DNA of 64,000 nucleotides from Candidatus Binataceae bacterium (GCA_963752805.1 CAVWAA010000008.1:78384-142383); one strand, 5' to 3'; positions 12,300 through 52,608 are shown, counted from the stretch's first letter. Notes: generated from the letters alone by a model not told the origin. Numbers and translations are program-made.

Positions 12300-12465
12300 G
12301 TCTTCTGTTATTCCGTTTTGCGACTGCTCCTCGGTGCCTGGGACGACAGGGTGGCACCAGAAGGCCATCGTCAAACGCATAATGGGGCGGCATAAGGAAT
12401 GCTCCTTTTTAACAACGAAACTGGACACGGCGAAGTAGCGTCTCTTAGATCAGGGAGTAATTGTT

Positions 12466-12939
12466 ATGAAGTCAAAAAGGAGAGTCCTAACAGCCCTCAT
12501 CGGACTCAGCTTATTGAGCATACCGCCAGGCGCGATGGCAGCCGTTCATTCGGATCGGCCCTCAACTCAGGTGACCTCTGTATCGCAAGTACCGTCGCAA
12601 CATTCGCCGATTGTTCTCGCCTATGAGGACGATGAACAACAATGGCGCCAACATCATCAGGATCACGACCGGGACCATCACAATGCCTATTGGGATCATC
12701 ACCACCTGAATCAGAACGACTACAACTGGGGTGGCCAACATCGGTATCAATACGCGCCGGGATGGTTTAACAGTCCGCCGTCAGGATGGGCTGGTGACCG
12801 CCGCCGCGAATACCTGGAGGAACGCCGCCGGGCAGCAATCAACATGCAACAGCAAATGCTGGCGCGCGGCGACACGAACGCCGCCCAGCGCCTGGGCGTT
12901 GTGATCGGCCAACTCAACAGTCAGCTCGGACATCGGTAG
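12466..12939 (+). CDS. Secreted histidine/aspartate-rich protein of unknown function (possible periplasmic metal-binding protein)
   Basis: 157-aa ORF with signal-peptide-like N-terminus (KSKRRVLTALIGLSLLSIPPGAMAA) followed by HHQDHDRDHHNAYWDHHHLNQNDYNWGGQHRY. No recognisable family. Confidence 0.5.
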   Translation: MKSKRRVLTALIGLSLLSIPPGAMAAVHSDRPSTQVTSVSQVPSQHSPIVLAYEDDEQQWRQHHQDHDRDHHNAYWDHHHLNQNDYNWGGQHRYQYAPGWFNSPPSGWAGDRRREYLEERRRAAINMQQQMLARGDTNAAQRLGVVIGQLNSQLGHR

Positions 12940-13039
12940 GCACTGCCGCCGGTGGCGCATTCGTTGGCTCGGCGCACCGGCTGCACTTTGGCGCCGGTGC
13001 GCTGCAAACTGACGGCGGAAGACGAGCAGGCACAGCTAT

Positions 13040-14044
13040 TCAGCGCCATGCAGTAGCGACTTCTTCCATTGCACGCATTACGCGGCGGCGCTTTTGTTCC
13101 GGGTCTGGTTGGAATGACGTAAATTGCAGGGCGGTCGTGGTGATCCCTGCCTGTTCGTAATCGCGGAGACGCCGGGCGATCTGTTTGGCTGTACCGAAGA
13201 CGAAAATAGATTCGATCATATGGTCCGGTACCAGCGAAAGCGCCTTGCGGCGGTCGCCAGCGTTCCACGCTTCGAGCGCCGCCCGGGCCTCGTCACCGTA
13301 GCCGATCCATTGAAAGAACCGGTTGTACTGCGGCACCGTCAAATAGGCAGTCAGCTCGCGGCGGAGATTTTCGCGCACGACCTCCTGCTCATCGTCAACC
13401 GCGACCAGAATGCGGCAGGCGATGTCGAGTGAATCAACGCTTTTGCCCCCTCTCTGCGCGCCTTGCCGAATTTCATTGAGCATCCGCGGAAAAGTCTCCG
13501 GCGTGATGTAATTGACGATCACGCCGTCACCGATTTCGCCTGCGGTCCGCAGCATCAATTCCCCCTGTGCACCAACGTAGATCGGCGGCGGCGTCTCGGG
13601 CGGTGCGCCGAGACGAAATCCGTTAATCGTCACCGCTTTGCCTGATGTGGTGACCCTTTGCCCCGTGAAGGCAGTGCGCAAGGCGGCGACGGTCTCGCGC
13701 AGACGGGTCAGCGGCATCCGATACGGCACACCCATCCATTGCTCGACAATCGTCGGGGTGGAAATGCCGACGCCGAGCACGAAGCGTCCCCCGGAGAGTT
13801 GCTGCACGGCCGCGGCCGAGAGCGCGATGAGTGCGGCGGGACGCGTAAAGACGGGCACGATGGCGGTCCCCAGCCGAATTCGTTCGGTGACGGCGGCAGC
13901 CGCGGCCACAGGAGTGAACGCATCGCCGGCCAATGTTTCATAGCTCCACGCGTCAGCGAACCCAAGCTTTTCGGCATGCTGCACGAGTTCAACGAAATGA
14001 CGATTCTGGAAGCCGTCGAGGGGAATAGTAATTCCGAGTCGCAT
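13040..14044 (-). CDS. LLM-class (luciferase-like) flavin/F420-dependent oxidoreductase
   Basis: 334-aa ORF. N-terminal MRLGITIPLDGF...AEKLGFADAWSYET and GGRFVLGVGISTP are hallmarks of the bacterial luciferase-like monooxygenase fold. Confidence 0.8.
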   Translation of the reverse strand: MRLGITIPLDGFQNRHFVELVQHAEKLGFADAWSYETLAGDAFTPVAAAAAVTERIRLGTAIVPVFTRPAALIALSAAAVQQLSGGRFVLGVGISTPTIVEQWMGVPYRMPLTRLRETVAALRTAFTGQRVTTSGKAVTINGFRLGAPPETPPPIYVGAQGELMLRTAGEIGDGVIVNYITPETFPRMLNEIRQGAQRGGKSVDSLDIACRILVAVDDEQEVVRENLRRELTAYLTVPQYNRFFQWIGYGDEARAALEAWNAGDRRKALSLVPDHMIESIFVFGTAKQIARRLRDYEQAGITTTALQFTSFQPDPEQKRRRVMRAMEEVATAWR

Positions 14045-14160
14045 GACTAAGAGGTTACCCTTCCTCCGAGTTTTTCAGCAACTCAGCAGTTGGGGCTTGT
14101 CTAGTAGGACTGGCTTTCAAGCTTGTCCCACAACTACCTGAGATGGAAGCAATGCGAGCG

Positions 14161-17022
14161 CTATGCTTCTTGCTTTATATTCAGGGCCTGTGCCAAGTGC
14201 ATTGGGTGCCGCCCGTTGCAGAATTGTCTAATTTGGGAGCGGCAGGCGAAGCCGTCGGCGATGATCAAAGTGTCTTCTGCGCTATCTCTGACGGCAGGAA
14301 TCAGCACACGCTCAGCGATCGCGCGCGACACCTCGAAGCGGCGGGCATCGTAACCGAAGGCACCCGCCATCCCGCAGCATCCGGCGTCGGGCGCCTCGAC
14401 GCACAAGCCTTCCGCTTTCTTCAGCAACGCCAATTCGCTGTTCATTCCTGCGAGCGCTTTTTGGTGACAATGGCCGTGGACCAGGGCGGCGCCCTTAAGT
14501 GGAGGGGGGCTGAATTGCGGTGCCTTGGCGACTAGAAATTCGTCGAGCAGCATCGCATTGTGCGTTAGTTTGCGTGCGGCGGAAAGACGCGGGAACAGCG
14601 CCGGCAGCTCATCCCGCAAAGTCAACAGGCAACTCGGCTCAAGGCCGACGATGCTGACGCCTCGCTCAACGAAAGGGCTCAGCTCGGCGACGATTTCGAG
14701 CAAACGCGAGCGGCCGGCGTCGAGCTTCCCGGCTTCGTACAATGGCCGTCCGCAACACAGGTCCTTCGACGGCAGGATCACTTGGAAGCCGGCGCGTTCG
14801 AGCACTTCGGTGGCGGCAATCGCGACCTCGGGTTCGAAGAAATTGTTGAACGTGTCGGGAAAGAGCAGCGCCTGCGGTGAGTCGTGGTTTCGCTCGGGCC
14901 GGTGCGCGAACCATCGGCGGAACGATTGCCGCGCAAACCTTGGCAGATTCCGTTCGGGATGGAGCCGCAGGAGACGTCGTAAGATCGAACCTGTGGACCC
15001 CTGCTGCAGAGTATTCAAGAGCATCGGCGCCAGCGATGCAGCGCGGGCGATTTCATGGATACGGCCGAAGAATTCCACCGGTAAAGGGCGGCGATGACTT
15101 TCGTAAAAATTGGCGAGGAATTCGGCCTTATACGCCGCCATGTCAACCGACGCAGGGCATTCGCTCTTGCAGGCCTTGCATGACAGGCAAAGCTCCAATG
15201 CTTCGTGCAGGGCGGGGTCGGCAAAGCCGTCAGCCAAGAGATCACTGGTGAGCGCCTCGTAAATCAGGTGCGCACGCCCGCGGGTCGAATGGGCCTCCTC
15301 GCGCGTGGCCATGTAAGAGGGGCACATCACACCGGCGTCGGTCTTGCGGCATTTACCAATTCCGACACACTTGAGCGCGGCGCCTGCCAGTCCACCTTCC
15401 GCGCTGAAATCGAAGCGGGTGCGGAGGGATTGAGGGCTGTAATTGATCCCGATTCGTAGATGCGCATCGAGCGGTTCTGGATGGGCGAGCACGCCCGGAT
15501 TCATCATCCGGTCAGGATCAAAAGCGGCCTTGAATTCATGGAAGGCGCCGAGCAGTTCCCTGCCGTACATCTTGGGGAGCAATTCGGAGCGGGCCCGGCC
15601 GTCGCCATGCTCACCGGACAGTGACCCGCCGAATTCCACCACCAGGTCGGCGATGTCGGTCATCGCGGCGCGGAACTTGGCGATGCCTGCGGCGGTGAAG
15701 AAGTCGAAGTTGATGCGGCAATGCACGCAGCCTTCGCCGAAATGACCGTAGTAGGTTGCTGCCGCAAGTTCATAACGCGCTAACAAAGGCACCAGGCGCC
15801 GCAAAAAATCCCCGAGCCGGGCGGGTGGCACTGCGCAATCTTCGGCGCCGGGCCAGGTACGGGCTTGACCAGGCAACAGAGCGCCCGCGCCAAGTCCGGA
15901 TTCGCGAATGCCCCATACCGCGCGCTGCTCGGACGTCTCCTGCAATATTGCCACACCGGTGCAAGCGGCAACTCGTTCAGCATCGCGCCTGACCGCTTCC
16001 GCCGCGGCCCGGAGATCCTCATCGGTTTCAGCGCCGAGTTCAGCAATCAAAAAGGCTCTGCCGTCTGGCAGGTATCGTACGCCGGGCATACCTCTTTCAC
16101 GAGCGAAATCAGGCAGACGATGGTCGAAGCCTTCAAGCGCCTGCGGCCGATGCTCCAGTAACCATGGCGTCTGATCGGCGGCGCCAAAGATATCGTCGAA
16201 GCCCATCACGACCATCGCGATTTTCTTGGGAATCGGCACCAGCCTGACCATTGCGCTGAGCACGACCGCGAGAGTTCCTTCAGAGCCAACGACCGCGCGA
16301 GCGAGATTGAACGCATTTTCGGGTAGGAGTTGATCGAGGTTATAGCCGGATACGCGGCGCGGAATTTTAGGATAGCGCGCGCGCACCAATTCACCGTAAC
16401 GTGCGGCGAGTTCGCGCATTTTGGTGTAAAGCTCCGCAACCCGCCCTCCATTCGTCATCGCCGCTAAGTATTCGCCTTCACCGCCAGCACCCAGCAGAAG
16501 ACGCGTGCCGTCGTAGAGCAGGACGTCGAGACTAACGATATTGTCGACTGTCTTGCCATGCGCCGCCGAATGCGCGCCACATGAATTATTGCCAATCATG
16601 CCGCCGAGCGTGCACCGATCCTTGGTCGCGGGATCGGGCGCGAAGAATAGTCCATATTTGGCTGCGGCGGCATTGAGCTGCGCCTGCACGGCGCCGGGTT
16701 CGACTACCGCCACCCGTTGATCGGGATCAACCTGCCTCACGGAATTCATGTACTTGGAGAAATCGAGCACCAGGGCCGTATTAGCGGTTTGTCCGGCCAA
16801 TGCGGTGCCGCCGCCACGTGGCAGAATAGGGATACGGTTCTCGCGCGCCAGCGCAACCGCGCGTCTCACGTCCTCCTCGTGCCGGGGGATTACAACCCCG
16901 ATGGGCACGAGGCGATAATTGGAAGCGTCGGTCGCGTACAGCGCGCGCGTACCCGTGTCGAAGCGCACCTCGCCCTCGATCACTTGCGCGAGTTTGTCTT
17001 TGAGGATGTCGATAGAAGTCAT
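14161..17022 (-). CDS. FAD-binding oxidase fused to Fe-S/CCG-domain subunit (glycolate oxidase GlcD-GlcF-like / D-2-hydroxyacid dehydrogenase, YdiJ-like)
   Basis: 953-aa ORF. N-terminal PCMH-type FAD-binding domain (VVIPRHEEDVRRAVALAREN...PRGGGTALAGQ). C-terminal ferredoxin-type cysteine cluster CLSCKACKSECP plus CCG-like cysteine motifs (CCGRPL, CCGMAG). Confidence 0.85.
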   Translation of the reverse strand: MTSIDILKDKLAQVIEGEVRFDTGTRALYATDASNYRLVPIGVVIPRHEEDVRRAVALARENRIPILPRGGGTALAGQTANTALVLDFSKYMNSVRQVDPDQRVAVVEPGAVQAQLNAAAAKYGLFFAPDPATKDRCTLGGMIGNNSCGAHSAAHGKTVDNIVSLDVLLYDGTRLLLGAGGEGEYLAAMTNGGRVAELYTKMRELAARYGELVRARYPKIPRRVSGYNLDQLLPENAFNLARAVVGSEGTLAVVLSAMVRLVPIPKKIAMVVMGFDDIFGAADQTPWLLEHRPQALEGFDHRLPDFARERGMPGVRYLPDGRAFLIAELGAETDEDLRAAAEAVRRDAERVAACTGVAILQETSEQRAVWGIRESGLGAGALLPGQARTWPGAEDCAVPPARLGDFLRRLVPLLARYELAAATYYGHFGEGCVHCRINFDFFTAAGIAKFRAAMTDIADLVVEFGGSLSGEHGDGRARSELLPKMYGRELLGAFHEFKAAFDPDRMMNPGVLAHPEPLDAHLRIGINYSPQSLRTRFDFSAEGGLAGAALKCVGIGKCRKTDAGVMCPSYMATREEAHSTRGRAHLIYEALTSDLLADGFADPALHEALELCLSCKACKSECPASVDMAAYKAEFLANFYESHRRPLPVEFFGRIHEIARAASLAPMLLNTLQQGSTGSILRRLLRLHPERNLPRFARQSFRRWFAHRPERNHDSPQALLFPDTFNNFFEPEVAIAATEVLERAGFQVILPSKDLCCGRPLYEAGKLDAGRSRLLEIVAELSPFVERGVSIVGLEPSCLLTLRDELPALFPRLSAARKLTHNAMLLDEFLVAKAPQFSPPPLKGAALVHGHCHQKALAGMNSELALLKKAEGLCVEAPDAGCCGMAGAFGYDARRFEVSRAIAERVLIPAVRDSAEDTLIIADGFACRSQIRQFCNGRHPMHLAQALNIKQEA

Positions 17023-17436
17023 CGGCGTTTCACAGGCTGAATTGCCAACTAGCCGAAAAGGTCAAAATCAGTTCTGTGCGCGGAGATTTTACTTCAGCCA
17101 CCAGCAGCGGGAGAAGAACCAAGCATGGTGGAAGAAACGACTCCGCGCGTAAGAATGAGCGTTCAACAGAAATAGCCAAACCTCCAAGACTTTGACCATG
17201 GCAAAAGCTTTTTAAGAGCGCCCTCCGGTGGCGGCCACCGCTCCCCTACGGGGAATTAACCTAGACTTCGTCTTCCCTGATGCGCGAGTTGCCTTCTGTC
17301 CCTTGCAGCGTTTTCCGCTAGCGCTACGTGATTCCATTTCTGAGCGGACGTTTGCTGATGGAAACACCGCTCCCGTGATGGTTCGCCCTCGCCGATCGCG
17401 TTCGATGCTCTCTAATTCCCGAGTTGGCAAAGTCCC

Positions 17437-18741
17437 ATGGCTGTGCCTAATCTCGCCTGGGGGAACAGTTGTCCGTTTACATGGAGGGGACCCATGGCAA
17501 ATGGAATCGGGACGCGTGCACCGGCCTACCGATGGATGATCGAAGCGCTGGTTGTCGTAATGCTCATCGTGCAGGTGATGGCGTGGTTGGCGCCGGCTCC
17601 GATCCTGGCGCCGATTGTCGCTTCACTGCACATCGGTATGGGCCAGTTCGGCCTGATTATCTCGATTATCTCGCTTTGTATCGGGATATTTTCCTTTCTC
17701 GGCGGTATCCTGACTGAGCGCTTCGGCACGCTGCGAACCCTACTGGTAGGCATTTGGCTACTGGCGTTCGGGGAAGTGGCGAGCGGGTTCAGCGGCGGAT
17801 ATGGCGCTTTGCTGCTCTGCCGCGTGGTAGAAGGAGTCGGTTATGGATTGATGATCGGGCCGCCGGCCGCGCTGGTTATGGAATGGTTCAGTGAACGTGA
17901 ATGGCCTTATATCAATACCGCCAACTCGATGATCGCCTATCTAGGTATTGCCGCTGTGTTCGCCATCACGCCACGCGTATATCATGCGCTCGGGTCCTCA
18001 TGGCAGGGGACGCTGACCTGCTATGGCGTTAGTGCAGTAGTCGCGGCGATACTATGGAGCCTGCTCGGCCGGCAGCGCCGCAGTGCGGCGAGTGCAGCGC
18101 ATCAGGCTCATTCGCCATCGAATCTTCCCGAAGTGCTGCGCATGCGGGGCGTGATCCTGATGTCGATAGCACTATTCGGGGGCATGTGGGTTTTCCAGAT
18201 CTATACATCGTTTCTGCCGGAGTTCTTCCGCGAATATCGCGGACTGGGGCTCGAAGAAGCGTTGACCCTGACGGGGTTACTGCCGCTTACCGGTATTTTC
18301 GCGGCCGGGCTGGGCGGCGTCGCCAACGGGATATTAGGCCTGCGCAAACCATTTTTGTGGCCGATGGCGATCCTGTCACTGGTCGGATATCTAGCGGCGA
18401 TTCTGCTAACCGAGATGGCGGGAATCTCGACCGGCTTGGTGCTGGTCGGAATTGGCGCTTCCGGCGGGTTGGCGGCGACGGCGACGCTGATGATGGAGTT
18501 GCCGGGAATGACGCCCGCGAAAATGGGACCGGCGTTTTCCACGATCTGGGCAGTCGGCTATACCGGCGCGTTCATCTCGCCGATCCTCGGCGGAATGCTG
18601 GTGCCATCGCTGGGTTTGCGCAACGTGTTGTTGCTGGCGGCAACCTTGCAAGTGCTGCCAATCATTTCCATGTACATGCTGCCGGAAACCGGCCCCGGCC
18701 GCCGTCCGCTGGCAATGGCCGCGTCACCGGCGGGCCGCTGA
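17437..18741 (+). CDS. MFS-family transporter
   Basis: 12 predicted hydrophobic helices. MFS-like motifs (GILTERFGTLRT after TM2). True start probably the internal Met at ~17495. The 3' terminus is duplicated at 22832-22876. Confidence 0.8.
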   Translation: MAVPNLAWGNSCPFTWRGPMANGIGTRAPAYRWMIEALVVVMLIVQVMAWLAPAPILAPIVASLHIGMGQFGLIISIISLCIGIFSFLGGILTERFGTLRTLLVGIWLLAFGEVASGFSGGYGALLLCRVVEGVGYGLMIGPPAALVMEWFSEREWPYINTANSMIAYLGIAAVFAITPRVYHALGSSWQGTLTCYGVSAVVAAILWSLLGRQRRSAASAAHQAHSPSNLPEVLRMRGVILMSIALFGGMWVFQIYTSFLPEFFREYRGLGLEEALTLTGLLPLTGIFAAGLGGVANGILGLRKPFLWPMAILSLVGYLAAILLTEMAGISTGLVLVGIGASGGLAATATLMMELPGMTPAKMGPAFSTIWAVGYTGAFISPILGGMLVPSLGLRNVLLLAATLQVLPIISMYMLPETGPGRRPLAMAASPAGR

Positions 18742-18820
18742 AGCTGCAAGCGGAGGATTAAGAGGCCCGGGAACATGCGGTAAGTCCTATTGCGCTATAG
18801 GCGGGTTTGTTGCCTGGACC
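18697..18820. repeat. Left copy of ~120-bp imperfect direct repeat flanking the low-GC islet (overlaps MFS gene 3' end)
   Basis: Aligns at ~80% identity with 22832-22951. Conserved core ggaggattaag-ggccc-ggaaca-gcgg-taa-tcctattgcgctata. Confidence 0.65.
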
Positions 18821-18904
18821 ATCCAGGTGGCTTCGTGGTCGGCACGGCCAGCGAACGCATAAGTTGAGGCATCCGCCTGCACGAACTCGAGTAGCTAGCT
18901 TAAT

Positions 18905-19180
18905 ATGTCGAAGTACTGTCCCGCTAACTGCAACGGTGCGGAGAAGATTCCGTCTGAGCTAACACCCGCACAGGTTGAGCTGATCAGGTCCGAGATAGCC
19001 GCAAAGAAGTACAAGGAACTTCCAGAGCTAGCGCCAGGGCACTATTTCTACACCTGCGACTATTGCCACGTAGTCTGGCAGGCGCCTGGCCAGTTTTCGA
19101 CCGATTCAGCGAGGCGGATCCTTGGCCGCATCACCAGAGAGACTTGGCTGCCTTTCCCAGCCAAGGGAGGCTGGGAGTGA
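18905..19180 (+). CDS. Hypothetical small protein with CxxC...CxxC zinc-ribbon-like motif (islet gene 1)
   Basis: 91-aa ORF. CPANC and CDYC pairs. Lower GC than the genome background. No family recognised. Confidence 0.45.
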   Translation: MSKYCPANCNGAEKIPSELTPAQVELIRSEIAAKKYKELPELAPGHYFYTCDYCHVVWQAPGQFSTDSARRILGRITRETWLPFPAKGGWE

Positions 19181-19941
19181 AATCCTAGGCTGGCCCCCCG
19201 CCTGGCGTCAGCGCCATTACGTTCTATGGGGCCGACCTAGCCCTGTGGCTCTTTCTCTGGGTCCTTCCGAATTATGTGTACTTCAAGAGACGTAGGGTTC
19301 TTGTTCGCGGGGGGCTGCTCAGCACGCCGGCGGCGCGGTTACAGCACCACACATTATCCTGCTTATTAGGGGAGTAATTCTTTGTCATGGAAGCGCTAGA
19401 CGATCTTAGTACGCTTCGAAGCGTTAGCGCCCTGTTCTTCAATGCCTTGGTTATTGTCAACTGATACAGAATAGATGAGAAGGACGCGAACGCAACCCGC
19501 GATGAACTTGAAATCGTAGGGTCGCGCCTTGAACCTCTGCGGACTCCGCCGATGCCGCCCCAGCCTTCAGGCGTAATGCCACAGAGGCTTACTCGTCTGC
19601 ATGTATCGGACGAGCTACTTACAGCATTGGGATTAACAGCAGATAATCTACGAATCACGGTTGAATTATTCAAGCCACGGCACCACGGACGGCGGGTGCG
19701 GCGTCTATCCTGGCTCAAATCGAGACCGCGGGCGCGCCGGAGGCGCAAATCGAACGGGTCCGCGAGGCGCTAGCCAAGCGTGAGTTGATCGACAAAACTC
19801 CGTGGTTTGGGTTGGTGCTTCCTTGATGGCTCAACGAGTTGAACTTAACTGCGAACGCGGGTTGCAGCCGGCCGACAAAGGTCTCTCACGGGCTGGTTCA
19901 GTTTCAGAAAGATCCATTCGACAAAACACGGTCCGCTTATA

Positions 19942-20631
19942 GTGCGGTTAATGATGGCTGCCAACGACATCGAGCTAGCCAACTGGACCTTGGTCACTTG
20001 GCATGAGGAGCAACCGGGAATGCGCCGTCACATGCAACAAGGTGCGATCCAGTACTTTGTTCGGCTTCAATGCGCGCATCTCAGGGAGGCAATCAATCTT
20101 GTCAGCGAGCTACGTAAGCAGCCGGATCTTATGGATAGGCTTTCGAGATGCACTCCAGAGGCTAGACGGGCGTTCACCAACCTTTTGGATTGCCTTCGCG
20201 ATGGACGGAATTACCAAAAATACGAAACCCTGATAGGCCGTATCAGAAACAAAACCGCCTTCCACTATGACCCTGCGCAGGTCACAAAGGCGCTGGAAAG
20301 ATTAGCCGAAGGGAATTCGTTCACAGCAAAAGTTACCCTAGGGATGGATCTCTTTCTTGAGAGGTTTAATCTCGCCGACACCGTGATGGACACGATTTTC
20401 GTTCGCGAGATCGTGGGCGTTGGACCGGGTGGCGACGTTAATAAGGAATTCAATCGCATTCGGGATTTCGTGAATGAACTGTGCACCAGCTATCTCCGCT
20501 TTGTGAGAGAATCGCGACCAATTATCTTCGCGAGTGCGCCGGACCGTGACTATAACTTAGCGGATTCGCTGAAATGCGACTTGCGGAAACTCTGCCCGGG
20601 GGCTGGAGTACCCCTTTTCACCCGTCCTTAG
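19942..20631 (+). CDS. Hypothetical protein (islet gene 2)
   Basis: 229-aa ORF in the low-GC region. Good coding character, no recognisable motifs. Confidence 0.5.
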   Translation: MRLMMAANDIELANWTLVTWHEEQPGMRRHMQQGAIQYFVRLQCAHLREAINLVSELRKQPDLMDRLSRCTPEARRAFTNLLDCLRDGRNYQKYETLIGRIRNKTAFHYDPAQVTKALERLAEGNSFTAKVTLGMDLFLERFNLADTVMDTIFVREIVGVGPGGDVNKEFNRIRDFVNELCTSYLRFVRESRPIIFASAPDRDYNLADSLKCDLRKLCPGAGVPLFTRP

Positions 20632-21086
20632 GAAAGGAAGTGTCACACTCCCCACCCTCCGGCGGGATGCACTCAGCCGTTCTTCCGCATGGTTATCCTG
20701 TCTAGTTGCCTTCGAAAACATACTATTGAATGAGGCGCTTCTGCGTTGGGCCCACCCCTTACTGCCCCACAATACGCGGGTTTACGCAACGGTCCCACGC
20801 CCAAAGGATTCGGTTTTTGGATGCAAGCGACGACACTCGGAAGCTGTGTCAATTATTGCGTCAATCAACCTCGCGCTATTCGTCTTGAAAGCCCTTTTTA
20901 GGGCAAAGTGGCTGCTAACATTGGAGCTCGTATACGGGGATCAGTCCGACGCGCCACACCGGCGGACTGGTAGGATATTGCAGATTATTAGTCACCGCAG
21001 TTTTCGGCTCGTCTTCTGGGGGAGCGAAATATATCCGACGATGACGCTGCAACCGACACCGCCCGAGACTGCCGCCAGTCCGCAAT

Positions 21087-22778
21087 ATGGCCGCTGAGGA
21101 AGCAGGACGCGGAAATCGGCCTTCAGAAGTTCGGCATGAGGCAAATAAGACTGCCGAGGAGGCAAAGCAGAGCGACGACGCACCCGGCAAGTCGCTCCTG
21201 CGGAAAAGATTCGGCCCGTTCACGATCTCACGCGGCAGGCGCATCCACGGCAAAGATAGCGGTTTCGCGAGCATTATAGAGTCGCGCGGCGGTCAATTGT
21301 GGATGATGTGGGACAGCACCTGGGTCACAGTCTTTGAAGGCGAAGAGCGCGTGTGGCCGTCCTTCAAGCACATCAGCCACTTCGCACAGCGGCTCGAACA
21401 GCTCGAAGGGCGGCCTGGGCGTACCGTGGCCGAATACGAAGATACAGAGTCTTTGCGGGCCTGGCGCCGCCGCCAAGAGCGACTTAGGTACGGCAGAGAA
21501 ATATGTGTCCCCGAGTTGTCTCAGACTTTCGGTTTTCACGCTTATCGTATGCACCGGTGGAGCAACAGGATAACGCTCGTGTTCGATCTACCCGACACAA
21601 CCGTCGAAGCGGTTCTGCCGGTTACCGAAACGTGGCCATGGAAAGAGGAGTCATTGGCGGCTGGACTTTATTGGTGGAGCTGTCTTTTGGTAGGCGAGGT
21701 TCGTTCAGGTGTTTTGCAACACTCAGAACGTTTGTCACTGGAAGACCAAAGGAGGTTACGGTTGGAAAATGCTATCGTGGGTGCTCTCCTAGACGTAGGG
21801 TGTAACGACAATGTTATCAGGTTGATAGCATTAAACATGGCGCGTCACGATGAAGAAGCAGAGCGAAAGCTGGCGGAAGAAGAACATCGTCAAGAAGCTT
21901 TGCGCATATCAAACTTGAGGATCGGCAAACCGCCGCAACCTCCATACGGAAACGAAATCATAGATGAGAAGCTGAACGCTTTCGGTGTCCGTGCTTATCT
22001 CGGTGTCCGTGCTTATCGAAGAAGCGACCCAGTTACGTTCGTCTTTCAGCTACAGCATGCCGTTCGTGACACGTCTTCTATGCACGAAGTCGCAATAGCC
22101 GCGAGGCTGACACCCGACTATTGGGCTGGCAGGCGGCTAAAAATCTACCAAGTGACAGAAATGCTTGTCGCGGCCGGGCGTGACTTCCGTAAATTCCGGT
22201 CAGACACCGGCGCCATCAGGGACCCCATCGACAATCTTCTCCTCAGTTGCTGGCGCGACGCATTTTTGGAATCAGGCCACGGCGATGAGGTGTTCAGAAA
22301 AGTCGCTCTTCAAATGGCCGAGATGGAGCCTCGCATTCGAGAGAACGGTGGTGCTCCGATAACAAAGACGGATGCGAACGCTCACGCGCCGCAGGCCGCT
22401 CCTAAACGGCAGCGCGATTGGTTTTTGCGCCACGATTGGTTTTTGCGCCACGATTGGTCGCTTATACTAGTTCAACTAGCGGGAGGTGTGGGTGCACTAT
22501 ACGTAACCACCAATGGTACTGACGATAACTATAGGTCTTATGAACACCTTTATCGCGTGGTCATTTGCGGGCTGAGCGTTTATTCCGCGTGCGTCGCGGG
22601 CATGTCACGTCGCGCCGGCTGGGCGTGGCTTTTCGGAGCTGTGGCGCTGATCTACAACCCAATTGTTCGGGTACATATGGAGGACTACGAGTGGGACGCT
22701 TCGAACTTGATCGTTGGTCTGATATTCGTTGCGTCAGCTTTGCGGACCCTTTTCGGTCGAGCCAAACAACTGGAGTAA
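21087..22778 (+). CDS. Hypothetical protein with internal tandem repeats and C-terminal transmembrane helices (islet gene 3)
   Basis: 563-aa ORF. In-frame tandem 18-bp repeats at 21983-22018 (GVRAYL GVRAYR) and 22415-22458 (RDWFLRHDWFLRHDW). Three or four hydrophobic helices in the last ~110 aa. No family recognised. Confidence 0.55.
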   Translation: MAAEEAGRGNRPSEVRHEANKTAEEAKQSDDAPGKSLLRKRFGPFTISRGRRIHGKDSGFASIIESRGGQLWMMWDSTWVTVFEGEERVWPSFKHISHFAQRLEQLEGRPGRTVAEYEDTESLRAWRRRQERLRYGREICVPELSQTFGFHAYRMHRWSNRITLVFDLPDTTVEAVLPVTETWPWKEESLAAGLYWWSCLLVGEVRSGVLQHSERLSLEDQRRLRLENAIVGALLDVGCNDNVIRLIALNMARHDEEAERKLAEEEHRQEALRISNLRIGKPPQPPYGNEIIDEKLNAFGVRAYLGVRAYRRSDPVTFVFQLQHAVRDTSSMHEVAIAARLTPDYWAGRRLKIYQVTEMLVAAGRDFRKFRSDTGAIRDPIDNLLLSCWRDAFLESGHGDEVFRKVALQMAEMEPRIRENGGAPITKTDANAHAPQAAPKRQRDWFLRHDWFLRHDWSLILVQLAGGVGALYVTTNGTDDNYRSYEHLYRVVICGLSVYSACVAGMSRRAGWAWLFGAVALIYNPIVRVHMEDYEWDASNLIVGLIFVASALRTLFGRAKQLE

Positions 22779-22831
22779 ACAATCCACATCAAGCCAGGCT
22801 GAGTCGGAGCTACGACATGAATCGAATCCCA

Positions 22832-22951
22832 GGCCGCCGTCCGCCGGCGATGGCCGCGTCCGTGGCGGAGCATTGAAGCTGTACGGAGGATTAAGCGGCC
22901 CAGGAACACGCGGGTAAATCCTATTGCGCTATAAAAGGGCGTTACCTGGAC
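22832..22951. repeat. Right copy of the islet-flanking direct repeat; retains a relic of the MFS C-terminal coding sequence
   Basis: Encodes ...PGRRPPAMAASVAEH*, matching the MFS gene end ...PGRRPLAMAASPAGR*. Aligns with 18697-18820. Confidence 0.65.
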
Positions 22952-23283
22952 GCCTCATGAGACCGGCTTGACCGGGATCGGCTCGGTGGCATTGAGGTTT
23001 AGACACAATCAACGGAGTCGGTAACGGAGCGAATAAAAGCGCAATGAAAATCGAAGGGCGAAAACGCGGGACCCTTTGCGCGGCAACCACGCGCGAGGGT
23101 GACAGAAAAGCGTGGCGCGCCCCTGGTCTTGCCGTGCTCAATGCGTCGGCTCTGCCCGGGCGCCGCGCATGCGGAGTATAATCCCATCCCAACTTCAGCG
23201 GCAAACTGGCGGGACAGCAGTTCCGCGATGGGATTAACAGCAAACTCAACGGCAGCGACACTATCGCGCCGCAGCTCGCGCAT

Positions 23284-23397
23284 ATCTACTTCTATCAATT
23301 CCCCTGCGACCGCCTGCGCATAGCGGCAGGCGGGGTCGGCGGTAAACACCTTGCCGTTCAACAAGATCAAATCGGGACGAACTGGGGTATTGCTCAC
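23284..23397 (-). pseudogene. 5' fragment of an amidohydrolase-family gene (truncated or frameshifted)
   Basis: N-terminus MSNTPVRPDLILLNGKVFTADPACRYAQAVA is the typical start of metal-dependent amidohydrolases. The rest of the ORF has no amidohydrolase character. Confidence 0.3.
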
Positions 23398-23500
23398 GGC
23401 CTGCCCTCCGCTGGCAATCAGACTGATCGTAACGTTTCGCAGGACTCAGGCTAACCTCCCTCAGCCGCGCGGCCGGGACGCCGCGCAAGCCCTCCCGGTT

Positions 23501-24331
23501 TCAGGAGGTTTTCGGACGGTCAGGGTGCGGCACCAACCGTTCAATCTCCTCGTGCAGCAGCGCGTTGGAGGCGACGAAGCCTTTGAGTTTCACCGACGGT
23601 TTGTTGAAAAGCATCTCGCTGCCGTCGATATCGGTGATGCGGCCGCCAGCTTCGACGATTAATGCCGCCCCCGATGCAATGTCCCACTCACTTTTGGGTG
23701 TGCGGGTAAAGGTGGCGTCAGCGCGTCCGGCAGCGACCAGCGCGAGCTTGTACGCGACGCTGCCGATTGGATTTACCCGCAGTTTTCCCTCATAGGTCTT
23801 CCATTCGCCGCGTGAAGTCTCACTGCGGCTCGCCAGCACTGTGGCGTGTTCCAAGGTTGGCGTCTGGGTGACGCGCACCTGGCGCGAGTCCATGTAGCAT
23901 CCGCTGCCGCGCGCGCACCAGAACATTTCGCGCTTAATCGGATTGTACGTCACGCCCAGGATGGGATGACCGGCTTCGGCGAGCGCAATTGCGATCACGA
24001 ACTCCGGAATGCCTTTGATGAACTCTTTGGTGCCGTCGAGCGGATCGACGATCCACACTCGATGGCAAGCAAGCCGGTCGGAGTTGTCAGCGGTTTCTTC
24101 CGAAAGCCATCCATATTCCGGGAAAGGAGCGCGGAGCAGGCGTTTAATTTCGTGGTCGGCGTCGAAGTCGGCGGTGGTGACAGGGTTGTCTTTGCCCTTC
24201 TGGTCAATTTCAAATCCACGATCGCGAAAATACCGCTCGAGAATCTCGCCCGCTGATAGCGCGGCCTCGCGTGCAAGGTCGAGTTCGCGCTGCAGGTCCG
24301 CGGAGGGTGGTGTCACTTCGTTCGAGGGCAT
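23501..24331 (-). CDS. Inositol monophosphatase family protein (SuhB/CysQ-like)
   Basis: IMPase signature WIVDPLDGTKEF and downstream WDIASGAALIVEAGG motif. Confidence 0.8.
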   Translation of the reverse strand: MPSNEVTPPSADLQRELDLAREAALSAGEILERYFRDRGFEIDQKGKDNPVTTADFDADHEIKRLLRAPFPEYGWLSEETADNSDRLACHRVWIVDPLDGTKEFIKGIPEFVIAIALAEAGHPILGVTYNPIKREMFWCARGSGCYMDSRQVRVTQTPTLEHATVLASRSETSRGEWKTYEGKLRVNPIGSVAYKLALVAAGRADATFTRTPKSEWDIASGAALIVEAGGRITDIDGSEMLFNKPSVKLKGFVASNALLHEEIERLVPHPDRPKTS

Positions 24332-24345
24332 CCTAGGTTGCTTCC

Positions 24346-25485
24346 TTATACTCTTCTTGCTGCCGCTTTCATGCGTGGTTGCCTACGGCGCACTTTTTCA
24401 TAAGCGTCGGTCAATTCCTTGAGCATTGCTGCGCGCCGTTCATAAAGGCGGCGTGGTTGGCGCGGCCTGGCACGCGCCAACGCATAGGCGGTTATCAATG
24501 GCAGCGCCACTGTCGCGTCAACGTAGCACACAACGGAGTCCGGCAGCCGTTGCGGATCTATTTTACCCCAACTGACCGCCTCGCTGGGAGTTGCACCAGA
24601 GAGTCCGCCGGTATCGGGCCGCGCATCGGTGACCTGCAGGAAATAATCGTGGCCTTTTTCCGCTACGCCCATTACCTCCTGGATTTGTGGCTCGGTCTGC
24701 AGCACAAAATTTTTGGGCGAGCCACCACCCAGAATAAACACCGCGCTCTTCATTCCGTGTTTCTTTGCCGAGTACACAATCGCCGCCGTCTCGTTGACAT
24801 CGGCCAGGGGATCGAGCCGGAGGCTGCGCCCCTCAAACTGCAGCAAGGCGAGATTCATTCCTATCGAGGAATCGCCGGGTGACGAGGTATAAACCGGCAC
24901 CGCATGATCATACGCTGCCGCCAACAGCGAGCGGCCCTTGAGTTTAAGCACGCGCCCACGTTCGGCCACATAGCGCCCCGCCCGATAGTGGAACTCCGCG
25001 GTGCTCATTGGCTGTTGGAATTCGGCGTTTGCCGCGAGCTGTCGAAAAAAAGCATCGGTCGAAAGCAGTACCTCGTAATCGAAAAAAATGTCGTAGATGC
25101 GCACCACACCGGACTTGCGCAAGGCAATATCGTCAGCTTCGGACCAACCCTGGAACATCTTGAGGCCGATGCCGAAGTGCGTATCGTGATAAAGGTTGGC
25201 GCCGGTCGAGACGATCCAATCAACGAAGCCGTTTTCGATAAGGGGGATAAGGCATGACATGCCTAGTCCGGCGGGCGTGAGTGCGCCGGTTAGGCTCATG
25301 CCGACGATCGCATCAGGGGCGAGCATTTTTTCGGCGAACAAGCGGCACGCATCGCGCAGGCGGCGGCCATTGTAGGCGAGGAAGGCGTGGTCAACGAGTT
25401 CGGCTGCGCTCATCTCACCACGCACTGGCGGCGGCGCGATGGTTGTGCCACGCAGGAAAGGATTAGCTGAGGACTTCCGGGCCAT
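24346..25485 (-). CDS. Deoxyhypusine synthase-like protein (homospermidine/deoxyhypusine synthase family)
   Basis: Conserved [11 protein letters not shown] and [10 protein letters not shown] segments. The track ORF starts at 25554 but the Met at 25485 (MARKSS...) is a more likely start. Confidence 0.75.
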
Positions 25486-25768
25486 TTTCGGGCGTCGCCT
25501 CGATGCGTTGAGCGCCGCGCGGCCGTAAATGGGCTCGCTGCGGTACGCCCACAATGGTAGCCGCCGTAATCCGCCGATACCATCGTAACGCCGGTCGCAT
25601 CATTTCCTGAAGCATTTGGGCCGAGGCTCGTGCCGGATCGAACCGCACCGCTGAGATCCTTCGCCACCGGGGGTCAGTATGAATGTTCAGCATACGGCGC
25701 GGCCGTTTGCCAGCGGGCGATACTGCCCCTAAGATAGCGCGGGGATCGATCCGCCGAGGGGACAACCT

Positions 25769-26590
25769 ATGGCGATAATTGCACTCACGCAGCATTTGGG
25801 GACGCGTGCGTTTGCTCTCGGCCGCCTCACGGCTGAACGGCTGGGCTATCGTTTCTTAACCGCCGACGAGCTAATCGCGCAGACCTCGTACGTCTTCAAG
25901 GTCACGCCTGAGGAACTGGTGATAGTCAACGAGCGCCGTCCGCATTTCTGGGAACGGCTCAAAACCGACACGCAGCGCGTTGTCGCCTTCTTCCGCGCCG
26001 CCCTGCTAAAGGAAATGGCGACCAATAATCTCGTCGTGGCCGGTCGTTCAGTCACCTTTCTGCTGCCGGACTGCGGATGCGGGCTGCGGGTTCGGCTGAC
26101 CGGCCCATTCAAGGAACGGGCGCAAGAAGTAGCCCGGGAGGAAGGACTCACGCCGGCGGTGGCCGAGCGCCGGGTGCGTGATTACGACCGCGAGGTGCGG
26201 GCCCGGGTGCAGACGCTGTTCAACTATGACCTGGATGACCCGGCCAACTTTTCACTGGTGCTGAATACTTTTGCGATGCCACTCGGCACTGCCGCGTCAA
26301 TGCTGGCTTCGCTGGCAATCGAATTGGATCACAGCACGCGGCCAGAGCAATGGGCCCGGATGGGCGACGCCGCACTCGAAGCGCAGATTCGCGCGGCGCT
26401 TATATTACATCCCAAGATCGGACATGCACCGGTCGAGGTTCAATGCGCCGAGGGCGCGGTCCAGATCAACGGTCCGGGGCTAGTGCCACCATGGGACGAT
26501 CTGGTGAATGAGGTGGTGCGTCAGGTCGATGGAGTGATCTCAGTCGAGGTGGTCGCCGACGAACAACCGGTAACAGTCCGCCCAGCGTGA
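25769..26590 (+). CDS. Cytidylate kinase-like family protein (AAA_28/Cytidylate_kin2-type) with C-terminal BON-like region
   Basis: N-terminus MAIIALTQHLGTRAFALGRLTAERLGYRFL resembles the cytidylate-kinase-like family (degenerate P-loop). C-terminal GVISVEVVADE is BON-like. Confidence 0.55.
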   Translation: MAIIALTQHLGTRAFALGRLTAERLGYRFLTADELIAQTSYVFKVTPEELVIVNERRPHFWERLKTDTQRVVAFFRAALLKEMATNNLVVAGRSVTFLLPDCGCGLRVRLTGPFKERAQEVAREEGLTPAVAERRVRDYDREVRARVQTLFNYDLDDPANFSLVLNTFAMPLGTAASMLASLAIELDHSTRPEQWARMGDAALEAQIRAALILHPKIGHAPVEVQCAEGAVQINGPGLVPPWDDLVNEVVRQVDGVISVEVVADEQPVTVRPA

Positions 26591-26617
26591 TCGATACGTG
26601 TCCCGACAGGGAGAGGA

Positions 26618-27394
26618 ATGATTCGCGGAATCGATCACATCGTCATTGCCGTGCGCGATCTCGAGACCGCGATCGCGGATTACTCCACTCTGGGATTTAC
26701 CGTGGTGCGGGGCGGGCGGCATTCCGGGCTCAATACTCATAATGCATTGATTGCTTTTGTTGACGGCTGCTATTTCGAGCTGATTGCTTTTCCGGGCTCG
26801 CCTACCGCGGCGGCGCATTGGTGGTACGAGGCTTTGCAGCACGGCGGCGGCCTCACTGATTTCTGCGTGCAGAGCGACAGTGTTGAGGATGATGCGGCAG
26901 CATTTCGGCGGGCAGGCGCCGCTATCACTGCTGCCTTCACAATGGGCCGTGAACGGCCCGACGGCTACCGAATTAGCTGGGAGTTAGCAGTCAACGAGGG
27001 CGACACGCGCGGGCTGGTGCCGTTTTTCATCCGCGATATCACACCGCGAGACGAGCGCGTGCCACGCAAGCGCATACATCACAACGGCGCCGCCGGGGTA
27101 CAAAGCCTCGCCATCGTGGCCGCCGGCGTGAAGTCAATTGGGCTGATCTACGAAATGGCTTTGAGTCGGTGTGGCGAACGCATCGAGCGTGACGATTTGC
27201 AAGCTGACGGGGTGCGTTTTGCGTTAGGCCGGCACGAAGTTCAACTCATCGCGCCACGCAATGGTGCGGGCGTGGCAAGCGAGCGCTTGCGAACGCGCGG
27301 CCCGTCGCCGCTTGAAGTGAAAGTAGGCGGTGGCGCGACTCAGGGCCTGCTCGACATGAGCCGCGCGCACGGAGCGCGCGTCGTGCTAGCGTGA
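26618..27394 (+). CDS. VOC-family (glyoxalase/bleomycin-resistance/dioxygenase) protein
   Basis: MIRGIDHIVIAVRDLETAIADYSTLGF N-terminal VOC beta-alpha-beta-beta-beta module. Confidence 0.7.
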   Translation: MIRGIDHIVIAVRDLETAIADYSTLGFTVVRGGRHSGLNTHNALIAFVDGCYFELIAFPGSPTAAAHWWYEALQHGGGLTDFCVQSDSVEDDAAAFRRAGAAITAAFTMGRERPDGYRISWELAVNEGDTRGLVPFFIRDITPRDERVPRKRIHHNGAAGVQSLAIVAAGVKSIGLIYEMALSRCGERIERDDLQADGVRFALGRHEVQLIAPRNGAGVASERLRTRGPSPLEVKVGGGATQGLLDMSRAHGARVVLA

Positions 27395-27534
27395 CAGGAA
27401 AAGGTCGTCCGCTCCGCCGAAATACCTGCCCTGAAAGTGCATCTTCTTCCAGCCGCCAATTGAGCGGGGTCAATTGTGGATTGGCGCCGTGGCGCCGCTT
27501 GCGCATGGCGTAGTCAGCAGCGGACGATCAGGGT

Positions 27535-33599: not shown

Positions 33600-33648
33600 T
33601 CTCCGGGACCGGGGTCGGCGTGCTCCAGGAGCGCATCGTCCTGAGGCC

Positions 33649-47223: not shown

Positions 47224-47398
47224 GATTTTGCCTCCTTGGAATAACTTCTGAAATCGTAGTACAGTGACGGTTTGAACCTAGGTATCGTGCTCTCATCGCT
47301 TAGTGGCAAGCCTTAGCCGCTACGGCTGTCCCAACCCGGCGATGCATAGCACACCCGCGAATCACTAACAGAAGCGAAACTCGTTTCCCACTTGTGGT

Positions 47399-51163: not shown

Positions 51164-51181
51164 TACTTAAAGTTCTCCCTA

Positions 51182-52606: not shown

Positions 52607-52608
52607 CG

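What the first reader, a model, noticed from the sequence alone, without database searches (positions are those of the whole stretch)
18697..22951. Low-GC 4.1-kb islet bracketed by direct repeats that duplicate the 3' end of the MFS gene, carrying three unknown proteins and no integrase
Two ~120-bp imperfect direct repeats (18697-18820 and 22832-22951, ~80% identity) flank a segment whose GC content is visibly lower (~48-55%) than the surrounding ~62-65%. The right repeat still encodes a relic of the MFS C-terminus (PGRRPPAMAASVAEH* vs PGRRPLAMAASPAGR*). That is the classical footprint of a site-specific insertion at a gene 3' end that carried its own copy of the target. Inside are only three convincing genes: a 91-aa CxxC...CxxC zinc-ribbon-like protein, a 229-aa protein, and a 563-aa protein with internal tandem repeats and a C-terminal bundle of transmembrane helices. 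There is also a possibly frameshifted small ORF at 19552-19827. None has a motif I can assign. A horizontally acquired, repeat-bounded cassette of a small Zn-ribbon protein plus a large membrane-anchored protein is a common defence-island architecture (abortive-infection-like sensor plus membrane effector). The absence of any integrase, recombinase or transposase is unusual.
Basis: partly seen in the sequence, partly recalled or inferred. Interest (0 to 1): 0.75.

Follow-up and report, generated by a model that had tools for sequence, protein, structure and literature searches.

The report
Decaying integrase-less islet at MFS gene
A 4-kb strain-specific insertion next to a transporter gene in an uncultured soil bacterium (Binataceae) is the eroded remnant of a mobile element that has lost its recombinase; it carries a few rare genes, one probably a HEPN-type toxin, and is an ordinary kind of genomic island, not a new system.

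Summary
The direct repeats are real (18693-18822 and 22828-22953, about 81-83% identical), and the left copy forms the last 48 nt of the MFS gene. The GC dip is modest: 54.6% against 59.5-60.4% in the flanks, the 9th percentile of same-sized windows.

Two close relatives lack the island. L075 has 99.2-99.5% identical flanks and L081 is about 96% identical. Both share one collinear arrangement at this site, so the island is derived.

The right repeat is a natural allele of the MFS 3' end, not an exotic attP. L081 carries a b-like version (92% identical) as its only copy.

The island is decaying:
- It is a deletion derivative of a larger tandem-unit island seen in L001.
- Its 229-aa gene has two frameshifts shared by independent assemblies.
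- The adjacent amidohydrolase gene has lost 1.7 kb.

No recombinase remains.

The gene content is as follows:
- The 91-aa ORF is an orphan.
- The 229-aa protein belongs to a 19-member Binataceae family found on mobile elements. It is probably a divergent HEPN domain.
- The 563-aa protein has only four relatives among 1.84 billion representatives and ends in a DUF6804 membrane anchor.

No known defence system matches. Verdict: a CIME-like decayed integrative islet, a new member of a known kind.

The parts
17437..18741 (+). MFS transporter gene (434 aa). Its last 48 nt lie inside the left repeat.
   Evidence: Pfam MFS_1, E 7.8e-30. Orthologs occur in 63 Binataceae loci.
18693..18822 (.). Left direct repeat (a-type allele): the MFS 3' end plus about 80 nt downstream. 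It is attL-like.
   Evidence: It is about 99-100% identical to the single copy in the island-less strain L075.
18823..18867 (.). About 45 nt that are a diverged (roughly 70%) homolog of the start of the 404-bp segment occupying this site in island-less strains. It includes the 3' half of the hairpin CCTGGA-N3-TCCAGG.
   Evidence: Alignments; fold.
18905..19180 (+). 91-aa orphan ORF with a CxxxC...CxxC pattern (possible zinc ribbon), followed by a terminator-like hairpin at 19224-19248.
   Evidence: Only identical copies were found among 5.8 billion proteins. No family hit. Cysteine positions; terminator-like site.
19552..19826 (+). Small ORF that reads through only with a frameshift. Its stop overlaps the ancestral ATG of the next gene (TGATG at 19824-19828).
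   Evidence: Three-frame translation. No Pfam or NCBIfam match for the repaired product.
19826..20549 (+). Gene of the 229-aa family (ancestral frame, about 241 aa), predicted to be a divergent HEPN domain. It carries 1-nt deletions at 19847-19848 and at about 20512. The longest intact ORF is 19942-20631.
20339..21303 (.). Segment present twice (84% identical) in the larger island variant L001. The window copy is a recombinant of the two, with the crossover at about 21147-21200.
   Evidence: The track of 211 informative sites switches from copy 1 to copy 2.
21087..22778 (+). 563-aa modular protein. It has an N-terminal module (aa about 26-130), two related B modules (aa about 145-275 and 295-415), and a C-terminal DUF6804 membrane anchor (aa about 455-560). 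It contains two 18-bp x2 tandem duplications.
   Evidence: Pfam DUF6804, E 2.8e-11. Only 4 relatives among 1.84e9 representatives. Module repeat E 3e-6. dN/dS 0.31. The AF2 model is poor, pLDDT 46.7.
22828..22953 (.). Right direct repeat (b-type allele), a second, ectopic copy of the MFS 3' end. It is attR-like.
   Evidence: It is 92% identical to the sole MFS 3' end of the island-less strain L081.
22956..23307 (.). Downstream segment F. It is only 89.8% identical to L075, while the flanks are 99.2-99.5% identical, so it was imported together with the island from another lineage.
23293..23397 (-). Stub of the amidohydrolase gene (first roughly 30-37 codons). The deletion scar is at 23306/23307, where 1735 bp present in L075 are missing.
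   Evidence: tblastn with the 531-aa L075 amidohydrolase matches only aa 1-37. No Pfam hit on the 132-aa ORF.
23501..24331 (-). Inositol monophosphatase gene. This is the conserved right-hand neighbour of the variable site.
   Evidence: Pfam Inositol_P, E 2.3e-56. It is directly adjacent to the MFS gene in L008.

Best explanation
The segment is a strain-specific, eroding remnant of an integrated mobile element. It sits at the 3' end of an MFS transporter gene in a Candidatus Binataceae genome, and it is CIME-like: att-type repeats are kept and the recombinase is lost.

SHOWN
- The locus between the MFS and inositol-monophosphatase genes is variable across Binataceae.
- Two close relatives carry an island-free arrangement here: MFS end, 404 bp, segment F, then an intact amidohydrolase gene.
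- The window instead carries 4.1 kb bounded by two copies of the MFS 3' end. The two copies are different natural alleles.
- The island has lost DNA by recombination between internal tandem units.
- The island carries fixed frameshifts.
- A 1.7-kb deletion has destroyed the neighbouring amidohydrolase gene.

INFERRED
- A circular element carrying about 130-170 bp of homology to the MFS 3' end integrated by a single crossover. The crossover was Campbell-type, most likely through a tyrosine recombinase acting near the 15-bp identical, partly palindromic core TCCTATTGCGCTATA.
- That event duplicated the target.
- The integrase and other core genes were later deleted.
- The island and its right flank then moved between strains by homologous recombination.

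CARGO
- One gene is a probable HEPN-type RNase (toxin or abortive-infection class), now frameshifted at both ends.
- One is a rare modular protein anchored in the membrane by DUF6804, still under purifying selection.
- One is an orphan Cys4 ORF.
- Nothing shows that they act together.
For: - Repeats.
- Island-free relatives. L075 has flanks 99.25% and 99.48% identical and a single repeat copy. L081 is about 96% identical. L081 and L075 are collinear at 95% across the site, so the island-free state is ancestral.
- Other Binataceae have nothing (L008) or unrelated cargo (L003, L004) at the same junction.
- Repeat alleles: the right copy is 92% identical to L081's sole copy and the left copy is about 99% identical to L075's.
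- Independent confirmation of the junctions: the left junction in L066, the right junction in L001 and L002.
- Decay. The crossover between L001's tandem units is visible in the window. The frameshifts are shared by three other assemblies. The amidohydrolase deletion is documented. L001 itself holds truncated and frameshifted genes.
- Mobile-element affinity of the cargo. 229-family members lie in a tRNA-Cys/integrase/HTH_17 element next to type I R-M (L068, L078). Others lie in a Prim-Pol/DUF3987 element (L079), and beside an LmuB-like ATPase with a DDE transposase (L069-74). A relative of the 563-aa N-module lies beside an integrase fragment and a SIR2 gene (L077).
- HEPN lead.
- Composition is mildly atypical.
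- The class is already described: CIME definition in PMC5704250.
Against: - No relic of an integrase, excisionase or transfer gene was found in the island or in its larger variant.
- No intact relative using this att site was found in the genome, metagenome or viral collections.
- The island-free site is not a clean attB. The island replaced about 400 bp, and the right repeat abuts segment F directly. An extra deletion at the right junction must therefore be assumed.
- The repeat copies are mosaic between strains (L066, L081). This shows homologous recombination or gene conversion in the repeat, and it would equally fit an integrase-independent origin.
- The compositional deviation is weak.
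Confidence: 0.65

Rival explanations
1. An integrase was never involved. A circular or linear DNA carrying a fragment of the MFS 3' end recombined by RecA-dependent (Campbell-type or homology-facilitated) recombination. The island has since spread among strains purely by homologous recombination in its flanks, as a flexible genomic island.
For: - Both repeat copies are natural chromosomal alleles, and mosaics of them occur (L066, L081).
- The right flank F is 90% identical while the outer flanks are about 99% identical, so import by homologous recombination from another lineage did occur.
- Identity between the window and L001 inside the island is mosaic.
- No recombinase relic was found.
Against: - The left edge of the repeat is sharp and lies inside a gene's 3' end. 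This is typical of integrase targets.
- The longest identical block is a partly palindromic 15-mer, which looks like a recombinase core.
- Relatives of the cargo genes sit in integrase-bearing elements.
- 126 bp at 81% identity is a poor substrate for RecA.
Confidence: 0.2
2. The islet is a working anti-phage or abortive-infection cassette. A small sensor or toxin (the Zn-ribbon protein or the HEPN-like protein) would act with the 563-aa membrane protein as effector.
For: - The 229-aa family is probably HEPN.
- Its relatives neighbour type I R-M, an LmuB-like ATPase and integrases.
- A relative of the 563-aa protein neighbours a SIR2 gene.
- The 229/563 gene pair was duplicated as a unit in the L001-type island.
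- The 563-aa gene is under purifying selection, dN/dS 0.31.
Against: - There is no PADLOC, PHROGs or NCBIfam hit for any island protein, or for any of the 17 family members.
- The 229-aa gene is frameshifted at both ends in every assembly of this population.
- The genes are not linked in any other genome.
- The 91-aa ORF is an orphan.
- The genes are separated by 456-760 bp gaps, and a terminator-like site follows the first.
Confidence: 0.1
3. Assembly artefact: the contig is a chimera of strain haplotypes joined at the 128-bp repeat, so the island is not really at this site.
For: - The source is a metagenome-assembled genome.
- Contigs L001 and L002 both break at the repeats.
- Island-bearing (L002) and island-free (L075) haplotypes coexist in one sample.
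Against: - The left junction (MFS end, repeat, island) is reproduced at 99.4% in an independent assembly from another run (L066).
- The right junction (island, repeat, F) is reproduced in L001 and L002 from two other samples.
- Only the amidohydrolase deletion junction at 23306/7 lacks independent confirmation.
Confidence: 0.03

Closest known systems
CIMEs (cis-mobilizable elements), i.e. decayed ICE/IME remnants that keep attL and attR, as defined for Streptococcus ICESt-type elements (review PMC5704250)
   Same: - The island is flanked by direct repeats, one of which reconstitutes the 3' end of the target gene.
- It has no integrase or transfer genes.
- It is present or absent among close strains.
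- It shows deletion and decay.
   Different: - No related intact element with an integrase for this att site is known.
- No tandem accretion is seen.
- The repeats are long (about 128 bp), only 81% identical, and correspond to two chromosomal alleles.
- The island-free site carries 404 bp of alternative sequence.
- The host is an uncultured Binatota bacterium, so mobilisation cannot be tested.
HEPN-domain toxins: the HEPN superfamily of Anantharaman et al. 2013 (PMC3710099), including the integron-cassette HEPN (PDB 3JRT) and HEPN/MNT toxins (PDB 7AE2, 5YEP)
   Same: - The 229-aa family has an invariant R-x5-H motif at the end of the third core helix.
- It has an invariant His/Glu in the second helix and helical inserts between helices 2 and 3.
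- Family members lie on mobile elements and next to R-M genes.
   Different: - No sequence-profile match to any HEPN family was found.
- Foldseek finds nothing significant.
- The protein is larger (about 240 aa) than minimal HEPN toxins.
- No MNT-type partner is present.
- The window copy is frameshifted.
Pfam DUF6804 small membrane proteins
   Same: The C-terminal roughly 100 residues of the 563-aa protein match above the gathering threshold and form 3-4 hydrophobic helices.
   Different: The profile is about 91 positions long, whereas here the domain anchors a 450-residue modular cytoplasmic region seen in only four other proteins. No function is known for the family, and no paper mentions it.
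Flexible (replacement or additive) genomic islands exchanged by homologous recombination between strains (comparison made from my own knowledge of the field; no paper was consulted for it)
   Same: - The same chromosomal junction holds different cargo in different lineages (L003, L004, L008, L075, window).
- The flanks show imported divergent DNA.
   Different: Such islands are not normally bounded by a duplication of the neighbouring gene's 3' end.

Membership tests
CIME / decayed site-specific integrative element | Flanked by direct repeats (attL, attR), one of which overlaps and reconstitutes the 3' end of the target gene | tested here: met
   Repeats at 18693-18822 and 22828-22953. The left copy supplies the last 16 codons of the MFS gene.
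CIME / decayed site-specific integrative element | Absent from the same site in close relatives (an unoccupied site exists) | tested here: met
   L075 (flanks 99.2-99.5% identical) and L081 (about 96%) lack the island and have one repeat copy. Caveat: the site holds 404 bp that the island replaced.
CIME / decayed site-specific integrative element | No integration, excision or transfer genes inside | tested here: met
   Pfam, PHROGs, PADLOC, NCBIfam and tblastn with two integrases found none.
CIME / decayed site-specific integrative element | Derived from an ICE, IME or prophage: relics of core genes, or a related intact element using the same att site | tested here: not met
   No relics in the window island or in the larger L001 variant. 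No other locus carries the att sequence. Only indirect support exists: cargo relatives sit on integrase-bearing elements at other sites.
CIME / decayed site-specific integrative element | att sites are recombination-competent (excision, or mobilisation in cis by a related element) | not testable with these tools
   This needs reads or PCR across a circular junction, or an experiment.
HEPN superfamily (229-aa protein) | Conserved Rx4-6H motif at the end of core helix 3, and a conserved acidic residue in helix 2 | tested here: met
   R102 and H108 are invariant in 17 sequences, as are H46 and E49. The motif lies at the end of helix 91-103, and H46/E49 lie in helix 26-58 of the model. The topology is as described in PMC3710099.
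HEPN superfamily (229-aa protein) | Four-helix up-and-down bundle structurally similar to solved HEPN domains | tested here: inconclusive
HEPN superfamily (229-aa protein) | Sequence-profile match to a described HEPN family | tested here: not met
   No Pfam, NCBIfam or PADLOC hit. One member matches HEPN_AbiA_CTD at E 0.077 only. The profile search of PDB sequences was negative.
Known anti-phage defence systems (PADLOC-DB 2.0) | At least one island protein matches a defence-system model | tested here: not met
   Zero hits for the four island products and for all 17 members of the 229-aa family. Relatives P0022 and the L077 DUF6804 protein are also negative.
Pfam DUF6804 | Match above the curated gathering score | tested here: met
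   43.9 bits against a cut-off of 27, E 2.8e-11, residues 484-551. Relatives P0001, P0022 and the 214-aa L077 protein are annotated the same way.
Transposon or IS with target-site duplication | Transposase gene, terminal inverted repeats, and identical short target duplication | tested here: not met
   No transposase and no terminal inverted repeats. The repeats are 128 bp and are two different alleles.

The most novel reading that the evidence does not exclude
The 229-aa family is a new HEPN clade. Together with the DUF6804-anchored 563-aa protein it forms a two-gene abortive-infection or exclusion module. The module is carried on an integrase-less, att-flanked islet that spreads among Binataceae strains by hitch-hiking on a resident recombinase or by homologous recombination.
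Probability: 0.1. Interest if true: 0.55.

Novelty: new member of a known kind. Interest (0 to 1): 0.3.

Why it matters
- It gives a well-documented example of island gain, erosion and strain-to-strain exchange in Binatota.
- It flags two rare protein families for follow-up. One is a likely divergent HEPN family linked to R-M systems and integrative elements. The other is a modular DUF6804-anchored protein.
- It does not reveal a new kind of genetic system.
- The apparent puzzle of an island without an integrase is explained by decay.

Tried and rejected
- Dispersed repeat or REP-like family for the repeat. Rejected: there are no other copies in the window or in 82 loci. The two exact-core hits in JGI/IMG-VR are chance matches in a 41% GC contig.
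- Long target-site duplication made in situ. Rejected: the two copies are different natural alleles.
- Frameshifts as sequencing errors. Rejected: they are shared by three independent assemblies.
- 229-aa protein related to the DUF5677 protein of L001. Rejected: hhalign probability 0.6%.
- Small upstream ORF as an AbrB/MazE-type antitoxin. No Pfam or NCBIfam support.
- 324-aa neighbour of P0018 related to the 563-aa protein. Not related.
- Hidden pseudogenes in the gaps 19181-19941 and 20632-21086. tblastx found only the frameshifted N-terminus of the 229-aa gene.
- RNA elements. No Rfam match at E <= 1 in 17000-24500.
- Plasmid or phage origin. tblastn of the two larger proteins against 72,556 plasmids found nothing. 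The 229-aa family is absent from IMG/VR. The scan with the 563-aa alignment could not be run.
- Recombinase acting in trans within the window. None was found with two probes, and 10 neighbouring ORFs annotated by Pfam are housekeeping or have no family match. This was not exhaustive.
- Structure of the 563-aa protein. The AF2 model with 4 sequences was unusable, pLDDT 46.7, so no fold search was done.
- The afdb50 fold library was unavailable.

Full report
**1. Observation**

The left copy is at 18693-18822 and the right copy at 22828-22953. They are collinear, with spacing of 4133-4135 bp. Identity is 80.5% over 128 bp by blastn, and ungapped blocks reach 81-95%.

The left copy comprises the last 48 nt of the MFS ORF (17437-18741; Pfam MFS_1, E 8e-30) plus about 80 nt downstream. 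The right copy still reads ...PGRRPPAMAASVAEH*. The repeat occurs nowhere else in the window or in any locus fetched later.

The compositional claim is only partly right. The island is 54.6% GC. The flanks are 59.5% and 60.4%, and the window mean is 57.8% (sd 2.55%). That is the 9th percentile of same-sized windows. Tetranucleotide distance is in the top 3.8%. GC3 is 0.58-0.59 for the two larger island genes against 0.66-0.70 in the flanking genes, but genes at 48-52 kb have similar values.

The three ORFs, the two 18-bp tandem duplications and the C-terminal membrane domain are real. No recombinase was found by Pfam, PHROGs, PADLOC, NCBIfam or tblastn probes.

**2. Host and locus**

MFS orthologs place the window in Candidatus Binataceae (Binatota): 63 loci were found, the best at 84% amino-acid identity. 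The junction between the MFS gene and the inositol monophosphatase gene (23501-24331, minus strand) varies across the family:

| Locus | Content between the MFS and IMPase genes |
|---|---|
| L008 | nothing; the two genes are adjacent |
| L003 | 7.5 kb (GH31-like and other genes) |
| L004 | 3.65 kb (Rrf2-type regulator, porin-like protein) |

Neither L003 nor L004 has a duplication of the MFS end.

**3. Island-free close relatives**

L075 is a 145-kb contig. It is 99.25% identical to window 11518-18838 and 99.48% identical to 23306-27531. Between those blocks, L075 has one repeat copy, 404 bp of unique sequence, a segment F, and an intact 531-aa Amidohydro_3 gene.

Relative to L075, the window differs in three ways:
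- 18839-22955 replaces the 404 bp.
- Segment F (22956-23307) is only 89.8% identical.
- 1735 bp of the amidohydrolase gene are missing. Only about 30-37 codons remain (23293-23397, minus strand), fused to junk.

A second island-free strain, L081 (JGI, about 96% identical), was found with the repeat core. It is collinear with L075 at 95% identity across the 404 bp, F and the amidohydrolase gene. Two lineages 5% apart share this arrangement, so the island-free state is ancestral and the island haplotype is derived.

**4. Nature of the repeats**

I aligned all seven repeat copies. The window's left copy is the a-type allele, like that of L075. The window's right copy is a b-type allele. It is 92% identical to the single MFS 3' end of the island-free strain L081. 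L081's own copy is a mosaic: a-like in its first third, b-like in the middle, and L075-like to the right. L066 also shows mixed positions.

The 19% divergence between the two copies therefore reflects different lineage origins and recombination within the repeat. It does not date the insertion.

After the left repeat, about 45 nt remain that are a diverged homolog of the start of the 404-bp segment. The right repeat abuts segment F directly (…CCTGGACGCCT|CATGAGAC…). The simplest reading is that the original duplication was longer and that the right copy was trimmed by a later deletion. That deletion ended in the loop of a CCTGGA-N3-TCCAGG hairpin. The longest block identical in all copies is TCCTATTGCGCTATA. 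It is partly palindromic and is a plausible recombinase core, but this is inference.

**5. Independent confirmation and a larger variant**

The left junction is reproduced in L066 (another run, 99.4% identical). The right junction is reproduced in L001 and L002 (two other samples).

L001 carries a larger island. Window segment 20339-21303 occurs twice there, at 84% identity between the copies. About 3.1 kb lies between them, holding a truncated 147-aa paralog of the 563-aa N-terminus, membrane ORFs, a frameshifted DUF5677 gene and the 3' remnant of a second 229-family gene.

At 211 informative sites the window follows copy 1 up to about 21140 and copy 2 from about 21147-21200 onward. The window island is therefore a deletion derivative, produced by recombination between the tandem units.

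**6. The genes**

*91-aa ORF.* It has Cys at positions 5, 9, 51 and 54 and is an orphan. Only identical copies exist among 5.8 billion proteins, and no family matches it.

*229-aa ORF.* It belongs to a family of 19 proteins, largely or wholly from Binataceae-type metagenome contigs; one is named Binataceae by its source. Compared with that family, the window gene has a 1-nt deletion at 19847-19848 (codon 8) and another at about 20512 that changes the C-terminus. Both are shared by L066, L067 and L001, so they are real. The conserved core is intact, and the family evolves under purifying selection (dN/dS 0.13-0.24).

3JRT is listed as the "integron cassette HEPN" family in the HEPN superfamily survey (PMC3710099). 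That paper places the Rx4-6H motif at the end of helix 3, a conserved acidic residue in helix 2, and frequent inserts between helices 2 and 3. The family matches this description:
- R102-x5-H108 is invariant and lies at the end of helix 91-103.
- H46 and E49 are invariant and lie in helix 26-58.
- Two short helices sit between them.

No sequence profile supports the assignment. I rate the HEPN assignment at about 50-60%.

*563-aa protein.* Among 1.84 billion representatives its N-terminal 455 residues have only four relatives:
- P0001, the L001 copy (92% identical).
- P0022, 486 aa, with the same architecture.
- P0023, the truncated paralog in L001.
- P0024, which has the N-module only and is followed by a separate DUF6804 gene.

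The protein is modular. It has an N-module, two related B modules (E 3e-6) and a DUF6804 membrane anchor (E 2.8e-11). dN/dS is 0.31 both against L001 and against P0022, so it is a real gene under selection. Its AF2 model is unusable (pLDDT 46.7).

*Small ORF 19552-19826.* It needs a frameshift to read through. Its stop overlaps the ancestral ATG of the 229-family gene. It matches no family.

**7. Context of the relatives**

229-family members lie in the following settings:
- A tRNA-Cys-linked element with a tyrosine integrase and an HTH_17 gene, next to type I R-M genes (L068, L078).
- A Prim-Pol/DUF3987 element (L079).
- Upstream of an unknown 324-aa gene, a Metallophos protein and an LmuB-like SMC ATPase (PADLOC E 1e-17), with a DDE transposase nearby (L069-74).

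P0024 lies beside an integrase N-terminal fragment and a SIR2 gene (PADLOC E 7e-14).

The cargo families are thus typical of mobile or defence-island neighbourhoods. The three island genes never co-occur outside this population, however, and none matches a PADLOC model. The 229-aa family is absent from IMG/VR, and neither larger protein has a match in PLSDB plasmids. Rfam finds nothing.

**8. Interpretation**

The best explanation is a decayed integrated element, equivalent to a CIME as defined in PMC5704250: repeats retained, integration genes lost.

Shown:
- Insertion polymorphism relative to two close relatives.
- Duplication of the gene's 3' end.
- Three separate deletions.
- Fixed frameshifts.
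- Import of the island's right flank from another lineage.

Inferred:
- The original single-crossover integration of a circular element at the MFS 3' end.
- The involvement of a recombinase.

The main rival is an integrase-independent origin, with spread purely by homologous recombination. The mosaic repeat alleles are compatible with that. A functional defence cassette is unlikely in its present state, and an assembly artefact is largely excluded.

**9. Verdict**

The defence-architecture part and the "unusual lack of integrase" do not. This is a new member of a known kind, with modest interest in two rare protein families.

Noticed in passing
window 27531-33600: Identity between the window and L075 falls abruptly from 99.5% to about 65-72% (in patches) at 27531. 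This is the start of two large overlapping ORFs (27535-30825, 1096 aa; 30696-33599, 967 aa). Their L075 counterparts are UvrD-helicase/PDDEXK_1 (AddAB-like) proteins. It looks like a second strain-variable segment: replacement of a helicase-nuclease pair by a divergent allele.
   Followed up: no
window 22956-23397: Segment F is 10% diverged from both island-free strains, while the outer flanks are about 99% identical. It is joined to a 1735-bp deletion that leaves only the first roughly 30-37 codons of a 531-aa Amidohydro_3 gene. The 132-aa ORF there is a fusion artefact.
   Followed up: yes
L001 2512-4688: The larger island variant carries an extra 3.1 kb with a truncated 147-aa paralog of the 563-aa N-terminus, hydrophobic ORFs and a frameshifted DUF5677 gene. 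A 2025 preprint (PMC12632615) lists DUF5677 among domains enriched near serine-recombinase-marked defence loci.
   Followed up: partly
window 39735-40736 (- strand): A LigD primase-polymerase gene (Pfam E 1e-82) is present, so the host probably has NHEJ. That fits the deletion junctions with short filler seen at the island's right edge.
   Followed up: no
L069 8001-13846 (also L070-L074): A conserved four-gene row: a 229-family member, an unknown 324-aa protein, a Metallophos protein and an LmuB-like SMC ATPase. HTH_17 and DDE transposase genes lie nearby. It was seen on 24 or more contigs and may be a Lamassu-like system with unfamiliar partners.
   Followed up: partly
L077 1528-5144: A relative of the 563-aa protein is split into two genes here: a 226-aa N-module protein and a 214-aa DUF6804 protein. 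They are flanked by a truncated tyrosine-recombinase gene and a defence-type SIR2 gene.
   Followed up: partly
window 18779-18837 and 22913-22953: The block identical in all repeat copies, TCCTATTGCGCTATA, is a near-palindrome (CCTAT-TGCGCT-ATAGG in the left copy). The left repeat ends inside a CCTGGA-N3-TCCAGG hairpin whose 3' half is missing from the right copy.
   Followed up: partly
window 45000-61000: This long stretch is as GC-poor (52-56%) as the island, and its genes have GC3 of about 0.58-0.64. It shows that GC alone does not mark foreign DNA in this genome.
   Followed up: no
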